From: a virus
Taxonomy: Duplodnaviria; Caudoviricetes
DNA: 64,000 bases
Reading direction: 5' to 3' (one strand)
Virus record (IMG/VR): IMGVR_UViG_3300014204_000114
Span: 64,001-128,000 of that record
Shown here: positions 6,266-52,903 of the stretch, piece after piece
Layout: each line of letters opens with the position of its first letter
How positions within the stretch are numbered: position 1 is the stretch's first letter
Program-made: the position numbers and the translations under genes
Notes under the pieces: generated by a model
Databases searched by the model: none
Seen by the model: the letters and a program-made list of their open reading frames with translations, nothing else
What the model was told of the DNA's origin: nothing

Positions 6266-6688
6266 ATGTTCGTAACAGTAATACCAAGATATCAAGTTCC
6301 AATGATGGAGAAAGTAAATTACGATACTGCGGTTATAGCCATACGCTCTTTAGGAGATGACGCAGAAATTGAATATCCAAAGACGAGTAAAATCAAGGGA
6401 ATACTCCAGCTTCAGTTTGACGATATTACAAGAGATATTCCATGCTATTGCGCTTTTGAAAAAGAGCAAGCAGAACAAGTAGTAGATTTCGTATTGGAAT
6501 ATCAGGACAAAGTGGAGATGTTCGTATGTCAATGCGATGCTGGGATTTCAAGAAGCGCCGGAGTAGCATTAGTATTGGATGAGATGTTTCAGGGAAACGG
6601 AGTCCCGATAAAAGACGATCCAAGATTTTCCCCGAATCCATTAGTAGTAAAACTTTTAAGAGAAGCCTTTAAGGCTAGGGAGAAATAG
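6266..6688 (+). CDS. Protein-tyrosine/dual-specificity phosphatase-like protein
   Basis: FDD loop, CX5R motif CDAGISRS, SPNPLV. Confidence 0.85.
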   Translation: MFVTVIPRYQVPMMEKVNYDTAVIAIRSLGDDAEIEYPKTSKIKGILQLQFDDITRDIPCYCAFEKEQAEQVVDFVLEYQDKVEMFVCQCDAGISRSAGVALVLDEMFQGNGVPIKDDPRFSPNPLVVKLLREAFKAREK

Positions 6689-7111
6689 ATGAGAGTTACA
6701 GTAACTTTTCCTGCTCAGAGTGGCGTCTTAGATACTTTTGGACGTAGTTTTGGTCTTATAGAAACAAAAGTAAACTGGGACGAATTCCAGCTTTACTATA
6801 TTTGCAAAGAATGTGGAGCGTTATATAGAGACACCCCTGATGATTTCTTTTGTAAAAGATGCGGATGCGAGATATTGGATTTCGATATCAATCTGCCTAC
6901 TGAAAAATTAGCAAGAGTACTAGGCAGAGTTATAGAAAGAAGGGTGACTCCGTTCAAATGGTACGACCCTTTTACCTGGGGGAAAATTAAAAATACTCAG
7001 CAAGTATTTCAAGTACGGGAAGGAGACGAGATAGTGGAAATAGTAAATCCATGGAATACTAAAATACTTATTAAGAATCTCATTGAATACGCTAATAAAA
7101 AGGAGAAATAA
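6689..7111 (+). CDS. Zinc-ribbon hypothetical protein
   Basis: CKECG...CKRCG. Confidence 0.65.
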   Translation: MRVTVTFPAQSGVLDTFGRSFGLIETKVNWDEFQLYYICKECGALYRDTPDDFFCKRCGCEILDFDINLPTEKLARVLGRVIERRVTPFKWYDPFTWGKIKNTQQVFQVREGDEIVEIVNPWNTKILIKNLIEYANKKEK

Positions 7112-49910: not shown

Positions 49911-50095
49911 GTTTTAGAGTAACAGACGAATGTATTAATTGCGGTATGTGCGAGGCTGATTGCCCCGTAGAGGCTATAACTTCTGACGGAGGGAAGTGTA
50001 GTATAGACCCAACCAAATGCGTTGAGTGTAAATATTTCTACGAAGAACCTCAGTGTGTGTCTAATTGTCCTGTAGGAGCCCACGAAAAGGTATGA
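49907..50095 (+). CDS. 2x[4Fe-4S] ferredoxin
   Basis: [12 protein letters not shown] and [12 protein letters not shown]. Confidence 0.92.
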
Positions 50096-50871
50096 GCGTA
50101 GAGACATTCAAAAAGAAAGTTGAAGAAGGATTTGCCAAAAAGATCTTAACCAAAGGATTCTCCCGGGAGATTAAAGATAAGTACCGTAAACAGCTTGATT
50201 ATGAGATAGAGATCATAACTAGGATGGGGTTTGCGGATTACTTTTTAATACTTCAAGACATGATCGGCTGGGCTAAAGGTGAGAATATACTTATAGGTCC
50301 TGGAAGAGGATGTTTACATCCAAGCGTATTTATCAGGACTCTCAAAGGGTTAATAAAAATCAAGAATATAAGAGTAGGAGACGAAGTATTATCTGATGAT
50401 AACAAGTATCATAAAGTATTAAAAGTATTCAGTTATGAAGTCGAAGAAGACTTAGTACAGATCAATACTTATAAGAAGATGACCGACCAGTTATTTACTA
50501 AAGATCACAAGATATTATGTATCAAAGACAAGAAAGCCAGAACTTGGATTAAAGCTAAAGATATATCCGCGGGGGACTTCCTGATAAGACCGCCAAGTAC
50601 GCTTCTAAAAGTTCGCTCTACAAGTATACTAGAGGGATATAGAGGTTTAGTCCATGATCTACAAGTAGAAAAGACTGCTAATTTCTGTACCGAAGGATTT
50701 ATAGTACATAACTCTGCTAGCGGAAGTTTAATTACATACGTATTAGGGATAACGACGATTGATCCTTTGAAATACAATTTGATTTTTGAACGTTTTCTTA
50801 ATCCAGGAAGACATTGGAGATATAAGATGGACTTCCCGGAGTTAACTTATCAGCAGTTCAAGGAGATATGA
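50092..50871 (+). CDS. dnaE: DNA polymerase III alpha fragment 2 (start of palm domain) with mini-intein
   Basis: [22 protein letters not shown]|S.SGSL..YVLGIT.IDP....[10 protein letters not shown]. Confidence 0.9.
50311..50712 (+). mobile_element. Mini-intein (134 aa) in the DnaE GRG|S motif
   Basis: CLHPS...TKDHK...VHDLQVE..ANF...IVHN|S. Confidence 0.9.
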
Positions 50872-51169: not shown

Positions 51170-51258
51170 GCCGAGATATCCAAGCTGGCTAAAGGAATCA
51201 GACTGTAGATCTGACAGGCTTTGTCCTTTCGGGGATTCAAATTCTCCTCTCGGCACCA
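51170..51258 (+). tRNA. tRNA-Tyr(GTA)
   Basis: gccgaga/tctcggc acceptor stem, tcaga-ctGTAga-tctga anticodon arm, long variable arm, encoded CCA. Confidence 0.88.
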
Positions 51259-51269
51259 GAAATTATTGA

Positions 51270-51345
51270 GCCTACGTATCTCAACTGATAGAGAGCCGCA
51301 CCTGTACTGCGGATGTTAGGGGTTTGAGACCTCTCGTAGGCTCCA
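51270..51345 (+). tRNA. tRNA-Thr(TGT)
   Basis: gcctacg/cgtaggc acceptor stem, ccgca-ccTGTac-tgcgg, encoded CCA; atypical C33. Confidence 0.75.
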
Positions 51346-51349
51346 GTAT

Positions 51350-51422
51350 TCCCGGGTCGCTCAATTGGTAGGGCACGCGGTTACTCATCGCGAGGTTGTA
51401 GGTTCAAATCCTGCCCCGGGAG
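51350..51422 (+). tRNA. tRNA of uncertain identity (nominal anticodon ACT)
   Basis: tcccggg/cccggga acceptor, D arm gctc/gggc, T arm gtagg-ttcaaat-cctgc, loop ttACTca; no encoded CCA. Confidence 0.65.
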
Positions 51423-51453
51423 CACTGCCAATTTTATCTGTAAAGGAAAAGAA

Positions 51454-52076
51454 GATGCACACTACGATAGTAAAAATGAAAGATGGAAGAGAATTTAGAG
51501 GAGCCTTATGGACCTTTAGGCCTCTTGAAGGATGGTTCAATGTCACAGAAGAGGGTTCTCCCGAAAAAATATACTTCAAAGATTGCGAAAGCGTTATTAC
51601 TTTAGGGCAAAGGATTCATCCCGGAGTTACAGAAAATCAGGACGAAATAGAACGAGCAAAAGAAAACTTGCCTCAATTGGTACGCGACGAGCAATACGAT
51701 AAAGGGATTACAGATCCTAAGAAATTAGAAGAGAGGGCCAAAGAAATAATCAAGGAGCTGTACTAAAATGCAAAACATATATTTAATAGGCAAGAGTTTT
51801 CAAGGAGTTAAGTCTATAGACGAATTTGACTATAAGATAATCAATAAGTCCGGGAGACATGCTATTAAAGGTAAGGCTAAGATAACGAAATATACCGGAG
51901 AATACGAAGAGCCCATAGAAGAAGGAATGGAATCCAACATATCTATATGGACGAAGAATAATAAGGAAGTCACAGTCACGACTTTTTACGGCGCAGAAAT
52001 AACAAAAGTTAAGGGGAATGTATTATGGTTCGACATAAGAGCTATGATACCAATACAAGAAAGATTGACTTGTTAA
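51454..52076 (+). CDS. Two hypothetical proteins (about 51455-51766, 51768-52076)
   Basis: First likely starts at MHTTIV after AAGGA SD. Confidence 0.55.
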
Positions 52077-52093
52077 AGTAAAGAAGTTATACT
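52065..52093 (+). promoter_or_regulatory. sigma70 promoter; predicted +1 coincides with ATG 52100
   Basis: TTGACT-N17-TATACT. Confidence 0.8.
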
Positions 52094-52099
52094 ACAGAT

Positions 52100-52141
52100 A
52101 TGAAGATAGAATTCAGCTAGATTCAACGTGCCCCGCCTTGA
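52100..52141 (+). promoter_or_regulatory. Leaderless uORF MKIEFS-(TAG)-IQRAPP-(TGA), candidate arrest-peptide attenuator
   Basis: atg aag ata gaa ttc agc TAG att caa cgt gcc ccg cct TGA; followed by ttctccttg (52142-52150), complementary to taaggagaa SD (52190-52198). Confidence 0.65.
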
Positions 52142-52203
52142 TTCTCCTTGGCATGGAATTGGTTTATAGTAATGATTTGAACAATAAAATAAGGAGAAAA
52201 CAT

Positions 52204-52590
52204 ATGCATCCATATACAGAAAAGAAATTAGAACTTAAAGAAATAGCCAAGAAAATAGTAGTCCTAAAATTCCAACGTAAACCTAACAATAATACTTCAG
52301 GCAAAACACAAAGCGAAATTATTGACACTCTCTTCGACTCTAAACTCGAATACAGGATGAAGCATATTATTTACTGTTTGGCCAGAGGTCGTACGATGGA
52401 ACAGATAGAGAATAAAGTTAGCAAATCTAATAAGTTAGATAAGTATAAGTTATCACATATTGATGGGGCCTTCAAAGTTCTAAAGAAAGAAGCAGCCGAA
52501 TACGAAACTAAGTTGTTAGCAGAACGAAAAGATAAGAAAGAGAAAAGGAATGAAACTGTACGTAGTAACGAGGCGAGACTTACTGCCTAG
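52204..52590 (+). CDS. Basic hypothetical protein with R..H..Y.L.RGR..EQIE motif
   Basis: AAGGAG SD, ATG 52204; overlaps the Pth2-like gene. Confidence 0.75.
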   Translation: MHPYTEKKLELKEIAKKIVVLKFQRKPNNNTSGKTQSEIIDTLFDSKLEYRMKHIIYCLARGRTMEQIENKVSKSNKLDKYKLSHIDGAFKVLKKEAAEYETKLLAERKDKKEKRNETVRSNEARLTA

Positions 52591-52834
52591 TCAACAGGTG
52601 GTTCAAGTCGCTCACGTAGTAGCTAAATATATGCTAGAGAATCCAGGAGAGTGGAATAACGAGACTCTCGTGATTTATGGTGTAAGTAATGAGGTTGAAT
52701 TAGAATCTATATTAAATTCTCTTAAGAAGAGATATGTAAATCATTCCGAATCCAGAGAGCCTGACATGGGCTTGTCTCTAACGGGGATAGCAAGTACGAG
52801 CAGAAATGTTTTTAATAAGTTAAAACTGCTCTAG
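52550..52834 (+). CDS. Peptidyl-tRNA hydrolase 2 (Pth2)-like protein
   Basis: KLYVVTRRDL...Q..VQVAH, W...TLVI, EPD....LT.IA. Confidence 0.8.
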   Translation: MKLYVVTRRDLLPSQQVVQVAHVVAKYMLENPGEWNNETLVIYGVSNEVELESILNSLKKRYVNHSESREPDMGLSLTGIASTSRNVFNKLKLL

Positions 52835-52903
52835 TCGCTCAAATAGATAGGGCAAACGTCTCTAAAACGTAGTATGTTGGTTAGAGTCCAACCTATGGCA
52901 CCA
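52828..52903 (+). tRNA. Amber suppressor-type tRNA (anticodon CTA)
   Basis: 76 nt; acceptor gctctag/ctatggc (one G-U, one mismatch), D arm gctc/gggc, acgt-ctCTAaa-acgt, T arm gttgg-ttagagt-ccaac, A73, encoded CCA. Confidence 0.75.

What the first reader, a model, noticed from the sequence alone, without database searches (positions are those of the whole stretch)
52065..52903. Amber-readthrough-sensing switch: leaderless uORF (internal UAG, RAPP-stop) controlling an unknown protein, a Pth2 and a suppressor tRNA(CUA)
Seen in sequence: a TTGACT-17-TATACT promoter places +1 on ATG 52100. The micro-ORF reads MKIEFS-UAG-IQRAPP-UGA. Immediately after it, UUCUCCUUG (52142-52150) can pair with UAAGGAGAA, the SD of gene 52204. 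That gene overlaps a Pth2-like gene, whose own UAG stop overlaps a 76-nt tRNA with anticodon CUA. Established knowledge: RAPP is the arrest motif of ApdA/ApdP (related to SecM RAGP), Pro-Pro before a stop codon slows termination, and stalled ribosomes open anti-SD structures. Inference: a ribosome ending at UAG 52118 does not reach the anti-SD, so the downstream genes stay off. Only on UAG readthrough does it stall at RAPP, cover the anti-SD and switch on the unknown protein plus peptidyl-tRNA hydrolase. The module would sense RF1 failure or suppressor activity, possibly as counter-defence against host translation sabotage, or as a switch for UAG-containing genes elsewhere in the genome. I do not know of a description of such a module.
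Basis: partly seen in the sequence, partly recalled or inferred. Interest (0 to 1): 0.92.

Follow-up and report, generated by a model that had tools for sequence, protein, structure and literature searches.

The report
Stop-codon-readthrough sensor before suppressor tRNA
A 188-kb phage puts a tiny leader gene containing a UAG stop codon and a ribosome-stalling Pro-Pro motif in front of two small genes and its own UAG-reading tRNA; the same design in over 100 other phage loci suggests the two genes are translated only when that stop codon is being read through.

Summary
In this window alone they cannot be told from chance. The case rests on comparison.

Of 118 non-redundant homologous loci, 107 have an in-frame TAG followed within 1-16 codons by Pro-Pro, upstream of the same small gene (A). 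Shuffles give about 2%. TAG lies in frame with the Pro-Pro codons (124 against 18 and 21). TAA and TGA are depleted in that frame, and the Pro codons vary synonymously.

The bases at or just after Pro-Pro pair with the ribosome-binding site of gene A. In folding models a ribosome at Pro-Pro frees that site; one stopping at TAG does not.

Gene A is followed by a Pth2-fold gene (B), fused to A in some phages. A tRNA(CUA) follows, often 0-7 nt after B. Two cassettes with tRNA(UUA) have TAA in the leader instead.

My reading is a readthrough-sensing arrest leader that licenses A and B (confidence 0.6; nothing is experimental). The role of A and B is unknown. This phage is not TAG-recoded, and the leaderless start is unproven.

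I found no published description. This scan has noted the same module before in at least six other genomes.

The parts
52065..52093 (+). Sigma-70-like promoter candidate: TTGACT, 17 nt, TATACT. It would place +1 at about A52100.
   Evidence: 10 of 12 matches. Such hits are as common in shuffles of the region, so it is unverified. It overlaps the stop of the upstream ORF at 52074-52076.
52100..52141 (+). Leader micro-ORF MKIEFS-TAG(52118-52120)-IQRAPP-TGA(52139-52141). The RAPP codons are 52127-52138.
   Evidence: Sequence. The same architecture occurs in 107 of 118 non-redundant relatives. There is no SD before ATG 52100.
52142..52150 (+). Anti-SD TTCTCCTTG, directly after the leader's stop codon and inside the footprint of a ribosome held at Pro-Pro-stop.
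   Evidence: It pairs with 52190-52198 in the MFE and centroid folds. Across the family, stall-site to SD complementarity averages 8.0 nt against 5.0 and 5.5 in controls. For the window, the probability that SD and AUG are unpaired rises from 0.24 to 0.58-0.68 with a ribosome at Pro-Pro.
52190..52198 (+). Shine-Dalgarno TAAGGAGAA of gene A.
   Evidence: Sequence; it lies 5 nt before ATG 52204.
52204..52590 (+). Gene A: 128 aa, helical, with the conserved core E[YF]RxKHIxYCLxRGRTxEQIE. It has no Pfam family and ends in TAG.
   Evidence: A profile of the family matches 1,795 clusters at 50% identity with E <= 0.001. A is fused to B in L006 and L062.
52550..52834 (+). Gene B: 94 aa, divergent Pth2-fold protein. 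It overlaps A by 41 nt and ends in TAG.
   Evidence: Model pLDDT 96. Foldseek gives Pth2 structures 2zv3, 3erj, 1q7s and 1xty at probability 1.00, TM up to 0.82. The family profile hits 2zv3 at E 8e-4. PF01981 is below its cut-off.
52828..52903 (+). tRNA with anticodon CUA (amber suppressor type), 76 nt, CCA encoded, C4:U69 mismatch. It overlaps B's stop codon.
   Evidence: ARAGORN; Rfam RF00005 at 42.5 bits. A tRNA(CUA) starts 0-7 nt after B in about 20 relatives.

Best explanation
The unit is one operon: leader, gene A, gene B, tRNA(CUA). The leader acts as a translational sensor of UAG suppression.

Without suppression, ribosomes that start at AUG 52100 are released at UAG 52118. The anti-SD 52142-52150 then stays paired with the SD of gene A, and A and the overlapping B are not translated.

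When the operon's own tRNA(CUA), or any other amber suppressor, outcompetes RF1, the ribosome reads on for six codons. It is then held at RAPP-UGA. RAPP/RGPP is a strong arrest motif, and a C-terminal Pro-Pro slows termination.

The arrested ribosome covers the anti-SD, so the SD and AUG of gene A become free. A and B are then made.

A and B probably act together as a two-part Pth2-type tRNA-ester hydrolase. Its job would be tied to the suppressing state: either recycling tRNAs from products of readthrough and stalling, or feeding back on the suppressor.

Status of each step:
- Shown here by comparison: the conserved anatomy, the reading frame, the pairing and the synteny.
- Inferred: that readthrough, arrest and unmasking actually occur.
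- Unknown: what A and B do.
For: 1. In-frame TAG followed by Pro-Pro within 200 nt upstream of gene A occurs in 74 of 80 non-redundant loci. TAA and TGA give 4 each, shuffles average 1.5 (maximum 5), and random windows give 2.2%. A further 33 of 38 loci anchored on gene B show it too.

2. The frame is kept. TAG within 60 nt upstream of Pro-Pro is in frame 124 times, against 18 and 21 out of frame. TAA is in frame 21 times against 58 and 58, and TGA 3 times against 45 and 22. Fifteen different Pro-Pro hexamers occur, so selection acts on the peptide. Spacing varies from 2 to 14 codons.

3. The residues before Pro-Pro are RG in 27 leaders, RA in 2, RS in 6, and x-K or x-R in 34. Pro-Pro is directly followed by a stop in 49 of 74. 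The base after TAG is a purine in 71 of 74. Thirty-four leaders carry two TAGs.

4. RAPP and RGPP cause robust arrest that EF-P does not relieve (PMC12992588, PMC10951233, PMC7897499). A C-terminal Pro-Pro impairs termination in every context tested (PMC3834316).

5. Complementarity between the stall window and the SD window averages 8.0 nt, against 5.0 and 5.5 in controls. It reaches 8 nt or more in 38 of 74 loci, against 2 of 74. The paired sequences differ between loci.

6. In folding models the probability that SD and AUG are unpaired is 0.28 for free RNA and 0.29 with a ribosome at TAG. With a ribosome at Pro-Pro it is 0.57-0.58. It rises by more than 0.2 in 50 of 74 loci, against 2 of 74 for the TAG position. 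The window gives 0.24, 0.20 and 0.58-0.68.

7. Synteny: B follows A in nearly all loci. The tRNA(CUA) lies downstream, 0-7 nt after B in about 20 loci.

8. Covariation: both cassettes with tRNA(UUA) have TAA in the leader. These are L021 (MMF-TAA-LPRGPP) and L161 (..LGYS-TAA-IRARSPP). Their closest leader relatives with tRNA(CUA) have TAG-LPRGPP (L204, L207).

9. A and B are fused in L006 and L062. They overlap by about 30-40 nt in most loci.

10. Six relatives carry an in-frame TAG inside B itself.
Against: - There is no experimental datum of any kind. It is unknown whether the tRNA is expressed, whether it is charged and with which amino acid, and where the transcript starts.
- The window's tRNA has a C4:U69 mismatch.
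- The window's leader AUG has no SD, so its translation depends on a leaderless start or on reinitiation after the ORF that ends at 52076.
- The leader as a whole does not fold better than shuffles.
- About 9 of 118 loci lack the motif. Examples are L003, L005, L007, L076, L104, L105 and L121.
- In 12 of 74 loci the stall-to-SD complementarity is below 6 nt.
- This phage and two relatives that I read almost whole (G001 complete, G005 160,000 of 161,221 bases) are not TAG-recoded. They use TAG as an ordinary stop: 43 of 239 ORFs of 100 aa or more in the own genome. A strong suppressor would therefore be costly, and its clients are not identified.
- In this phage both A and B end in TAG, so suppression would also extend them.
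- A later check recorded in this scan on the same module in another genome priced the self-contained-switch reading at 20 in 100, for lack of experiment.
Confidence: 0.6

Rival explanations
1. The leader is translated and contains a meaningful UAG, but the output is the opposite or of another kind. Arrest at Pro-Pro-stop after readthrough could trigger A-site mRNA cleavage, tmRNA action or decay of the operon message. It could also alter processing of the embedded tRNA. Either would give negative feedback on the cassette instead of switching A and B on.
For: Pro-Pro-stop arrest in E. coli leads to stop-codon cleavage and ssrA tagging (PMC3834316). tmRNA genes lie near the cassette in L010, L012, L014 and L015. 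The tRNA is embedded in the same transcript, 0-7 nt after B. A suppressor is costly in a genome that stops at TAG.
Against: The conserved partner of the stall site is the SD of gene A. Occupying the stall site frees SD and AUG in 50 of 74 models, which is the anatomy of an ON switch. Cleavage and unmasking are not exclusive.
Confidence: 0.12
2. The conserved bases are an untranslated RNA or DNA signal, such as a promoter, a processing site or a protein-binding hairpin. The micro-ORF is then a by-product.
For: TAG is followed by a purine and usually T (TAGRT), which resembles part of a -10 element. The Pro codons are often CCTCC, the anti-SD sequence itself. There is a weak, sub-threshold match to a leader RNA family (PyrD_leader, 23.9 bits against 47).
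Against: TAG keeps the frame with Pro-Pro (124 against 18 and 21) over spacings of 2-14 codons. The other two stops are excluded from that frame. Fifteen synonymous Pro-Pro hexamers occur, many of which cannot pair with GGAGG (CCACCA, CCGCCA). Most leaders have their own SD and ATG. The stop switches to TAA where the tRNA is UUA.
Confidence: 0.05
3. The family switch is real, but in this particular phage it is a decayed or idle copy. With no SD before AUG 52100 and an imperfect tRNA, A and B would be expressed constitutively at a low level or not at all.
For: The window is one of only 7 of 74 loci with an ATG and no SD. The acceptor stem has a C4:U69 mismatch. A and B both end in TAG, and B ending in TAG is unique among 37 scored.
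Against: Every other element is intact: TAG, RAPP-stop, a 9-nt anti-SD, a strong SD, the A/B overlap, and the tRNA with its CCA. A consensus-like promoter sits exactly where a leaderless start would need it.
Confidence: 0.13
4. The resemblance in this window is chance.
For: Window-only statistics are unremarkable.
Against: The signature recurs in 107 of 118 homologous loci, against about 2% expected.
Confidence: 0.02

Closest known systems
RAPP/RGPP-type regulatory arrest peptides (ApdA, ApdP, ApcA; SecM with RAGP), which unmask a downstream SD (PMC7897499, PMC10951233, PMC12992588)
   Same: An R-[AG]-P-P core at the end of a short upstream ORF. The stalled ribosome sits on the sequence that sequesters the next gene's SD.
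   Different: Those peptides are longer secretory or membrane 'monitoring substrates'. Their arrest is relieved by Sec or YidC activity. Here the leader has 13 codons, has no export signal, and reaches the arrest motif only after decoding an in-frame stop codon. The input is nonsense suppression, not protein export. About half of the relatives use K/R-Pro-Pro-stop instead of R[AG]PP.
prfB (RF2) autoregulation through an in-frame UGA
   Same: An in-frame stop codon early in a message reports how efficiently that stop is recognised, and this sets the output of the downstream coding sequence.
   Different: prfB uses a +1 frameshift within one gene and senses a release factor. Here there is no frameshift, the read-out is arrest plus SD unmasking of a separate gene, and the effector sensed is a suppressor tRNA competing with RF1.
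Classical leader-peptide attenuation (trpL, hisL, pheL) and ermCL/TnaC-type translational attenuation
   Same: A short leader whose decoding of particular codons reports the supply of a particular charged tRNA or ligand. Ribosome position chooses between RNA structures.
   Different: The reporting codon is a stop codon. No terminator or antiterminator is seen in the leader. Control is at translation initiation.
Phage 'code change modules' and suppressor tRNAs of stop-codon-recoded phages (bioRxiv 10.1101/2021.08.26.457843; PMC9523058)
   Same: A phage-encoded tRNA(CUA) grouped with translation-related genes.
   Different: [quoted passage not shown] No leader sensor, gene A or Pth2-like gene is mentioned. 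This phage and two relatives are not recoded genome-wide. They resemble the 'orphan' suppressor tRNAs of phages such as XacN1, for which no targets were found (PMC5852040).
Archaeal/eukaryotic peptidyl-tRNA hydrolase Pth2 (PF01981; 2zv3, 1xty, Bit1 1q7s)
   Same: Gene B has the same fold (TM 0.72-0.82) and shares the AQxxHA-like helix and an acidic EPD segment.
   Different: B is shorter (94 aa) and below Pfam's cut-off. It is always paired or fused with gene A, and its activity is untested.
Synthetic amber-codon-controlled leaders in genetic-code-expansion work (reviewed in PMC6412442)
   Same: UAG decoding in a leader is used to gate downstream expression.
   Different: Those are engineered. 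This would be a natural counterpart. I did not read the review in detail.

Membership tests
RAPP/RGPP arrest peptides | R-[A/G]-P-P core at the arrest point of a small upstream ORF | tested here: met
   RAPP is encoded at 52127-52138. Among 74 relatives, RG-PP occurs in 27 and RA-PP in 2.
RAPP/RGPP arrest peptides | The stalled ribosome disrupts a structure that sequesters the downstream SD | tested here: met
   In silico only: a 9-nt anti-SD/SD helix, enrichment across the family, and footprint-constrained folding.
RAPP/RGPP arrest peptides | Translation arrest demonstrated (toeprint, peptidyl-tRNA accumulation) | not testable with these tools
   This needs in vitro translation.
RAPP/RGPP arrest peptides | Secretory or membrane N-terminal part, with arrest released by the protein localisation machinery (monitoring substrate) | tested here: not met
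   The leader has 13 codons and no hydrophobic segment. The downstream genes are not Sec or YidC components. It works like these peptides but is not a monitoring substrate.
Pth2 (PF01981) | Pth2 alpha/beta fold | tested here: met
   Model pLDDT 96. Foldseek against 2zv3: E 2.4e-6, probability 1.00, TMq 0.82. Also 3erj, 1q7s, 1wn2 and 1xty.
Pth2 (PF01981) | Sequence score over Pfam's gathering cut-off | tested here: not met
   The window's protein scores 14.6 bits against a cut-off of 23. Eighteen of 22 family members match PF01981 at E up to 1 (best E 3.7e-6); their scores against the cut-off were not listed.
Pth2 (PF01981) | Catalytic residues and peptidyl-tRNA hydrolase activity | tested here: inconclusive
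   Q19, H22 and E70 are invariant, P71 and D72 nearly so. They align with the AQxxHA helix and the acidic segment of Pth2. I made no residue-by-residue check against mutational data. Activity is not testable here.
Amber suppressor tRNA | tRNA cloverleaf with anticodon CUA | tested here: met
   ARAGORN; Rfam tRNA 42.5 bits against a gathering score of 29. There is one C4:U69 mismatch.
Amber suppressor tRNA | Expressed, aminoacylated, and decoding UAG | not testable with these tools
Stop-codon-recoded phage (code 15) | In-frame TAG across many genes; coding density restored when TAG is read as sense | tested here: not met
   The gain from reading TAG as sense equals the TGA control. TAG ends 43 of 239 ORFs of 100 aa or more. 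The terminase gene has no internal stop.
prfB-type autoregulation | Programmed +1 frameshift at the in-frame stop | tested here: not met
   Pro-Pro and the second stop lie in the zero frame of the leader in the window and in relatives.
Transcription attenuation leaders | Alternative terminator and antiterminator hairpins after the leader | tested here: not met
   No terminator-like site lies between 52100 and 52204.

The most novel reading that the evidence does not exclude
The cassette is a self-contained circuit that reports the state of the genetic code. The phage's suppressor tRNA licenses translation of a two-part Pth2-type hydrolase (A plus B) through a leader that counts one or two stop-codon readthrough events. 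A and B then act back on suppression or on its consequences, for example on the charged suppressor, on peptidyl-tRNA from readthrough and non-stop stalls, or on RF1 competition. This would explain why standard-code phages keep 'orphan' suppressor tRNAs and how they keep suppression within tolerable limits.
Probability: 0.25. Interest if true: 0.93.

Novelty: new variant of a known kind. Interest (0 to 1): 0.85.

Why it matters
If it works as read, this is a natural sensor whose input is the decoding of a stop codon. It would be a leader peptide that measures nonsense suppression directly.

It would give the many unexplained suppressor tRNAs of large standard-code phages a first conserved target and a control logic. 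For XacN1, for example, the authors could not identify targets (PMC5852040).

It would extend RAPP/RGPP arrest peptides beyond protein-export monitoring and into phages.

It would define two large unannotated protein families. Gene A has 1,795 clusters at 50% identity. Gene B is a short Pth2 branch tied to suppressor tRNAs.

It would offer ready-made parts for genetic-code-expansion circuits. One-TAG and two-TAG versions could give different thresholds.

The claim can be tested directly with reporters in existing amber-suppressor or RF1-deficient laboratory strains.

Tried and rejected
- Genome-wide TAG recoding of this phage and of two relatives (G001, G005): rejected.
- TAG-interrupted client genes in the own genome: only weak candidates. 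ORFs 6266-6688 and 6689-7111 lie in one frame separated by a TAG. They are unrelated to each other, and the second has its own ATG.
- Near-identical phage records: none.
- A word-index protein search with gene A found only the window's own protein. The profile search was needed.
- Fold of gene A: Foldseek gave nothing at E <= 0.001. VIA-align gave only generic helical hairpins at Z about 7-8. These include the coiled-coil arms of SerRS, ValRS and FemA, which are in the noise range for helical models. The ESM Atlas gave no usable hit.
- Complex prediction for A with B: weak support. Score 0.39 against a best control of 0.01. That mark was reached by 58 of 80 solved complexes and 2 of 110 mismatched pairs, but scores of 0.60 or less are weak passes. 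The runs agree in 100% of contacts and the partner's pLDDT is 89. I do not count it as evidence. The fusions carry the claim that A and B act together.
- More ochre or opal cassettes: a further scan gave none beyond L021 and L161.
- Genome-contig scan: one hit only, on a Saccharibacteria MAG contig with a tRNA(CUA).
- Amino-acid identity of the tRNA: not resolved. The 100 unique suppressor tRNAs (anticodon CUA, plus the ochre UUA) are very diverse, and my parse of the ARAGORN output kept only the first 50 nt.
- Rfam: only tRNAs pass. PyrD_leader is far below threshold.
Full report
**What is in the window.**

The window is bases 64001-128000 of a single 187,794-bp virus record that CheckV rates 99% complete. 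Almost all genes lie on the + strand.

- TTGACT (52065-52070), 17 nt, TATACT (52088-52093).
- ATG at 52100, then AAG ATA GAA TTC AGC, TAG (52118), ATT CAA CGT GCC CCG CCT, TGA (52139). This is MKIEFS-stop-IQRAPP-stop.
- TTCTCCTTG (52142-52150), which is complementary to the Shine-Dalgarno TAAGGAGAA (52190-52198) of an ORF starting at 52204.

That ORF (gene A, 128 aa) overlaps a 94-aa ORF (gene B, 52550-52834) by 41 nt. B's TAG stop lies inside a 76-nt tRNA with anticodon CUA (52828-52903).

Taken alone, none of this is statistically remarkable. The anti-SD/SD helix is in the minimum-energy and centroid folds, but the 116-nt leader folds no better than shuffles (z = +0.89). Promoter-like hexamers are as frequent in shuffled sequence.

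**The phage is not recoded.**

Reading TAG as sense restores no more coding density than reading TGA as sense. No long gene is split by TAG. TAG ends 43 of 239 ORFs of 100 aa or more, and the terminase gene is uninterrupted. The genome has five tRNAs.

Two cassette-bearing relatives that I fetched almost whole, G001 (175 kb, complete) and G005 (160,000 of 161,221 bases), behave the same way.

So this is an 'orphan' suppressor tRNA in a standard-code phage. That situation has been noted without explanation for cultured jumbo phages such as XacN1 (PMC5852040).

**Relatives.**

Gene A has no Pfam or PHROG family. A first viral hit (L001) already showed the key pattern. Its gene A homologue is preceded by SD-ATG ACT TAT CAC TAG GTA TCA CTT GAT AAA CCA CCC TAA. 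That is followed at once by TTCTTCTTGG, which pairs with CCAAGGAGAA before the start codon.

Profile-guided scans then gave 19 viral and 80 metagenomic loci anchored on A. A further 69 viral loci were anchored on B. A profile of A matches 1,795 clusters at 50% identity in the 1.84-billion-protein library.

**The leader is conserved as a translated frame.**

Among 80 non-redundant loci with enough upstream sequence, 74 have an in-frame TAG followed within 1-16 codons by Pro-Pro in the 200 nt before gene A. TAA and TGA give 4 each. Two hundred shuffles average 1.5 (maximum 5), and random windows of the same loci give 2.2%. Of 38 further non-redundant loci, 33 show it.

Typical leaders are ML-TAG-VSKPP-stop, MT-TAG-TGFT-TAG-IRGPP-stop and MHEI-TAG-VRLIKPP-stop. 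Some leaders are the tail of a longer upstream ORF that ends in TAG.

The frame statistics argue for translation and against a bare nucleotide motif:
- TAG within 60 nt upstream of Pro-Pro is in frame 124 times, and out of frame 18 and 21 times.
- TAA (21 in frame against 58 and 58) and TGA (3 against 45 and 22) are excluded from that frame.
- The spacing varies from 2 to 14 codons.
- Fifteen different Pro-Pro hexamers occur.

Most leaders have their own SD and ATG, and the commonest form has only two codons before the TAG.

Other regularities:
- The residues before Pro-Pro are RG (27), RA (2), RS (6), or a basic residue K or R (34).
- Pro-Pro is directly followed by a stop in 49 of 74.
- The base after TAG is a purine in 71 of 74.
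- Thirty-four leaders have two TAGs.

From the literature, RAPP and RGPP are the strongest arrest cores and are refractory to EF-P (PMC12992588; also PMC10951233, PMC7897499). A C-terminal Pro-Pro impairs termination in every context tested (PMC3834316).

**The stall site pairs with the SD of gene A.**

I compared a 22-nt window at Pro-Pro with the 16 nt before gene A's start. The longest complementarity averages 8.0 nt. It averages 5.0 for the window just upstream and 5.5 for shuffles. It reaches 8 nt or more in 38 of 74 loci, against 2 of 74.

The paired sequences differ from locus to locus. One example is ggttctcctata with tataggaggac, and another is ttatttttctttaa with ttaaaggagaataa. The distance from Pro-Pro to the start codon is narrow, mostly 53-90 nt.

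In partition-function folds, the mean probability that the SD core and AUG are unpaired is:
- 0.28 for the free RNA;
- 0.29 with a ribosome footprint placed for termination at the TAG;
- 0.57-0.58 with the footprint on the Pro codons.

The rise exceeds 0.2 in 50 of 74 loci, against 2 of 74 for the TAG position. The window itself gives 0.24, 0.20 and 0.58-0.68.

**The operon.**

A Pth2-like ORF follows gene A in nearly all loci. It usually overlaps A by 30-40 nt. In L006 and L062 the two are one fused protein.

A tRNA(CUA) lies downstream in 17 of the first 19 viral loci and in 47 of 69 B-anchored loci. In about 20 loci it starts 0-7 nt after B's stop. In the window it starts 7 nt before the end of B.

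Six relatives have an in-frame TAG inside B.

Gene B's model (pLDDT 96) matches Pth2 structures with TM up to 0.82, and the family profile hits 2zv3 at E 8e-4. The window's protein is below Pfam's cut-off.

Gene A is a helical protein with a conserved E[YF]RHKHIAYCLLRGRTxEQIE core. It has no informative fold match.

**Covariation with the anticodon.**

Two cassettes carry tRNA(UUA) instead, and their B proteins are only 27% identical to each other. In both, the leader's internal stop is TAA:
- L021: MMF-TAA-LPRGPP.
- L161..LGYS-TAA-IRARSPP.

The nearest leader relatives of L021 that carry tRNA(CUA) read TAG-LPRGPP (L204, L207). With a background of 3-5% for TAA followed by Pro-Pro, two out of two is unlikely by chance. 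It is still only two cases.

**Mechanism.**

The anatomy fits a simple two-state translational attenuator. Release at UAG leaves the anti-SD/SD helix closed. Readthrough carries the ribosome onto an arrest site that coincides with the anti-SD, which opens the start region of gene A. B would follow by coupling.

Two TAGs in series would make the output depend roughly on the square of suppression efficiency. That is my inference.

The conserved anatomy is shown by comparison. Readthrough, arrest and unmasking are inferred, and I put the reading at 0.6. A note from a later check in this scan, on the same module elsewhere, priced the self-contained-switch reading at 20 in 100 for lack of experiment. 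I weigh the frame, pairing and anticodon evidence gathered here more heavily, but the caveat stands.

For the window itself, the start of leader translation is the weak point. There is no SD before AUG 52100. Neither is shown.

**What A and B do is open.**

The fusions and the conserved overlap say they act together. The complex prediction gave only weak support and is listed under what was tried.

A Pth2-fold hydrolase made only while a stop codon is being suppressed could recycle tRNA from readthrough or non-stop products. Several cassettes sit near phage tmRNA genes. Alternatively it could deacylate the suppressor as negative feedback, which would suit genomes that still stop at TAG. I cannot choose between these.

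**Known or new.**

Full-text searches found no description of such a leader or of the A/B/tRNA cassette. The recoding survey describes a module of tRNA, synthetase and release factor only.

The mechanism class is known: arrest peptide plus SD unmasking. The idea of an in-frame stop as a sensor has a precedent in prfB. The input, nonsense suppression by a phage tRNA, and the cassette appear to be new. I therefore file it as a new variant of a known kind.

This scan has reported the same module before in at least six other genomes. My conclusions rest on the tests run here.

Noticed in passing
window 50065-50871: This ORF carries the DNA polymerase III alpha NTPase-domain start (PF07733), interrupted by an intein/Hint domain. 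It ends after ...FERFLNPGR plus a short tail. The phage's DnaE therefore looks fragmented, as other notes of this scan also say.
   Followed up: no
window 51170-51423: A cluster of three tRNAs (Tyr GTA, Thr TGT and one with anticodon ACT) lies 700 nt upstream of the leader. The ACT tRNA has a short variable arm although it is nominally Ser.
   Followed up: no
window 52588-52590, 52832-52846, up to 53119: Genes A and B both end in TAG here. B ending in TAG occurs once among 37 relatives scored. B's frame stays open through the tRNA into the next small membrane-like ORF (to 53119), apart from TAGs at 52832 and 52844. Strong suppression would therefore extend both proteins.
   Followed up: partly
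window 52827/52828: The tRNA's 5' end lies upstream of B's stop codon. If RNase P cuts the tRNA out of the operon transcript, the remaining B message has no stop codon. In one sub-family (L011, L075, L088, L097) the tRNA overlaps the end of gene A by 36-38 nt instead.
   Followed up: partly
window 6266-7111: Two 140-aa ORFs lie in the same frame, separated only by a TAG (6686-6688). The second begins with ATG right after it. The two are not similar to each other, and the first matches phrog_5614. This could be a readthrough fusion or simply neighbouring genes.
   Followed up: partly
L007, L017, L022, L023, L031, L059: The Pth2-like gene B contains one in-frame TAG at varying positions. Full-length B in those phages needs suppression as well.
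   Followed up: partly
L010 1114-1445, L012 813-1139, L014 5337-5687, L015 481-856: Phage-encoded tmRNA genes lie within a few kb of the cassette.
   Followed up: no
L191 (Stenotrophomonas phage RAS14, OP752703.1) 1940-2800: A cultured 320-kb phage has an HD-domain/Pth2 fusion annotated from a GTG. The frame continues upstream to SD-ATG-AAG-TAG. This may be an amber codon at codon 3 of the gene itself. No tRNA(CUA) lies within 2.5 kb.
   Followed up: partly
L190 (Saccharibacteria MAG contig CAZNER010000073.1): This is the only hit among 185,579 species genomes. It is a 9.3-kb contig with a gene A relative and a tRNA(CUA), probably phage DNA binned with the MAG.
   Followed up: no
gene A relatives, C-termini: Many gene A proteins end in ...C-x-S-A, ...R-A-C-A or similar, just before the stop. 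This conserved C-terminal Cys/Ala pattern has no known meaning.
   Followed up: no
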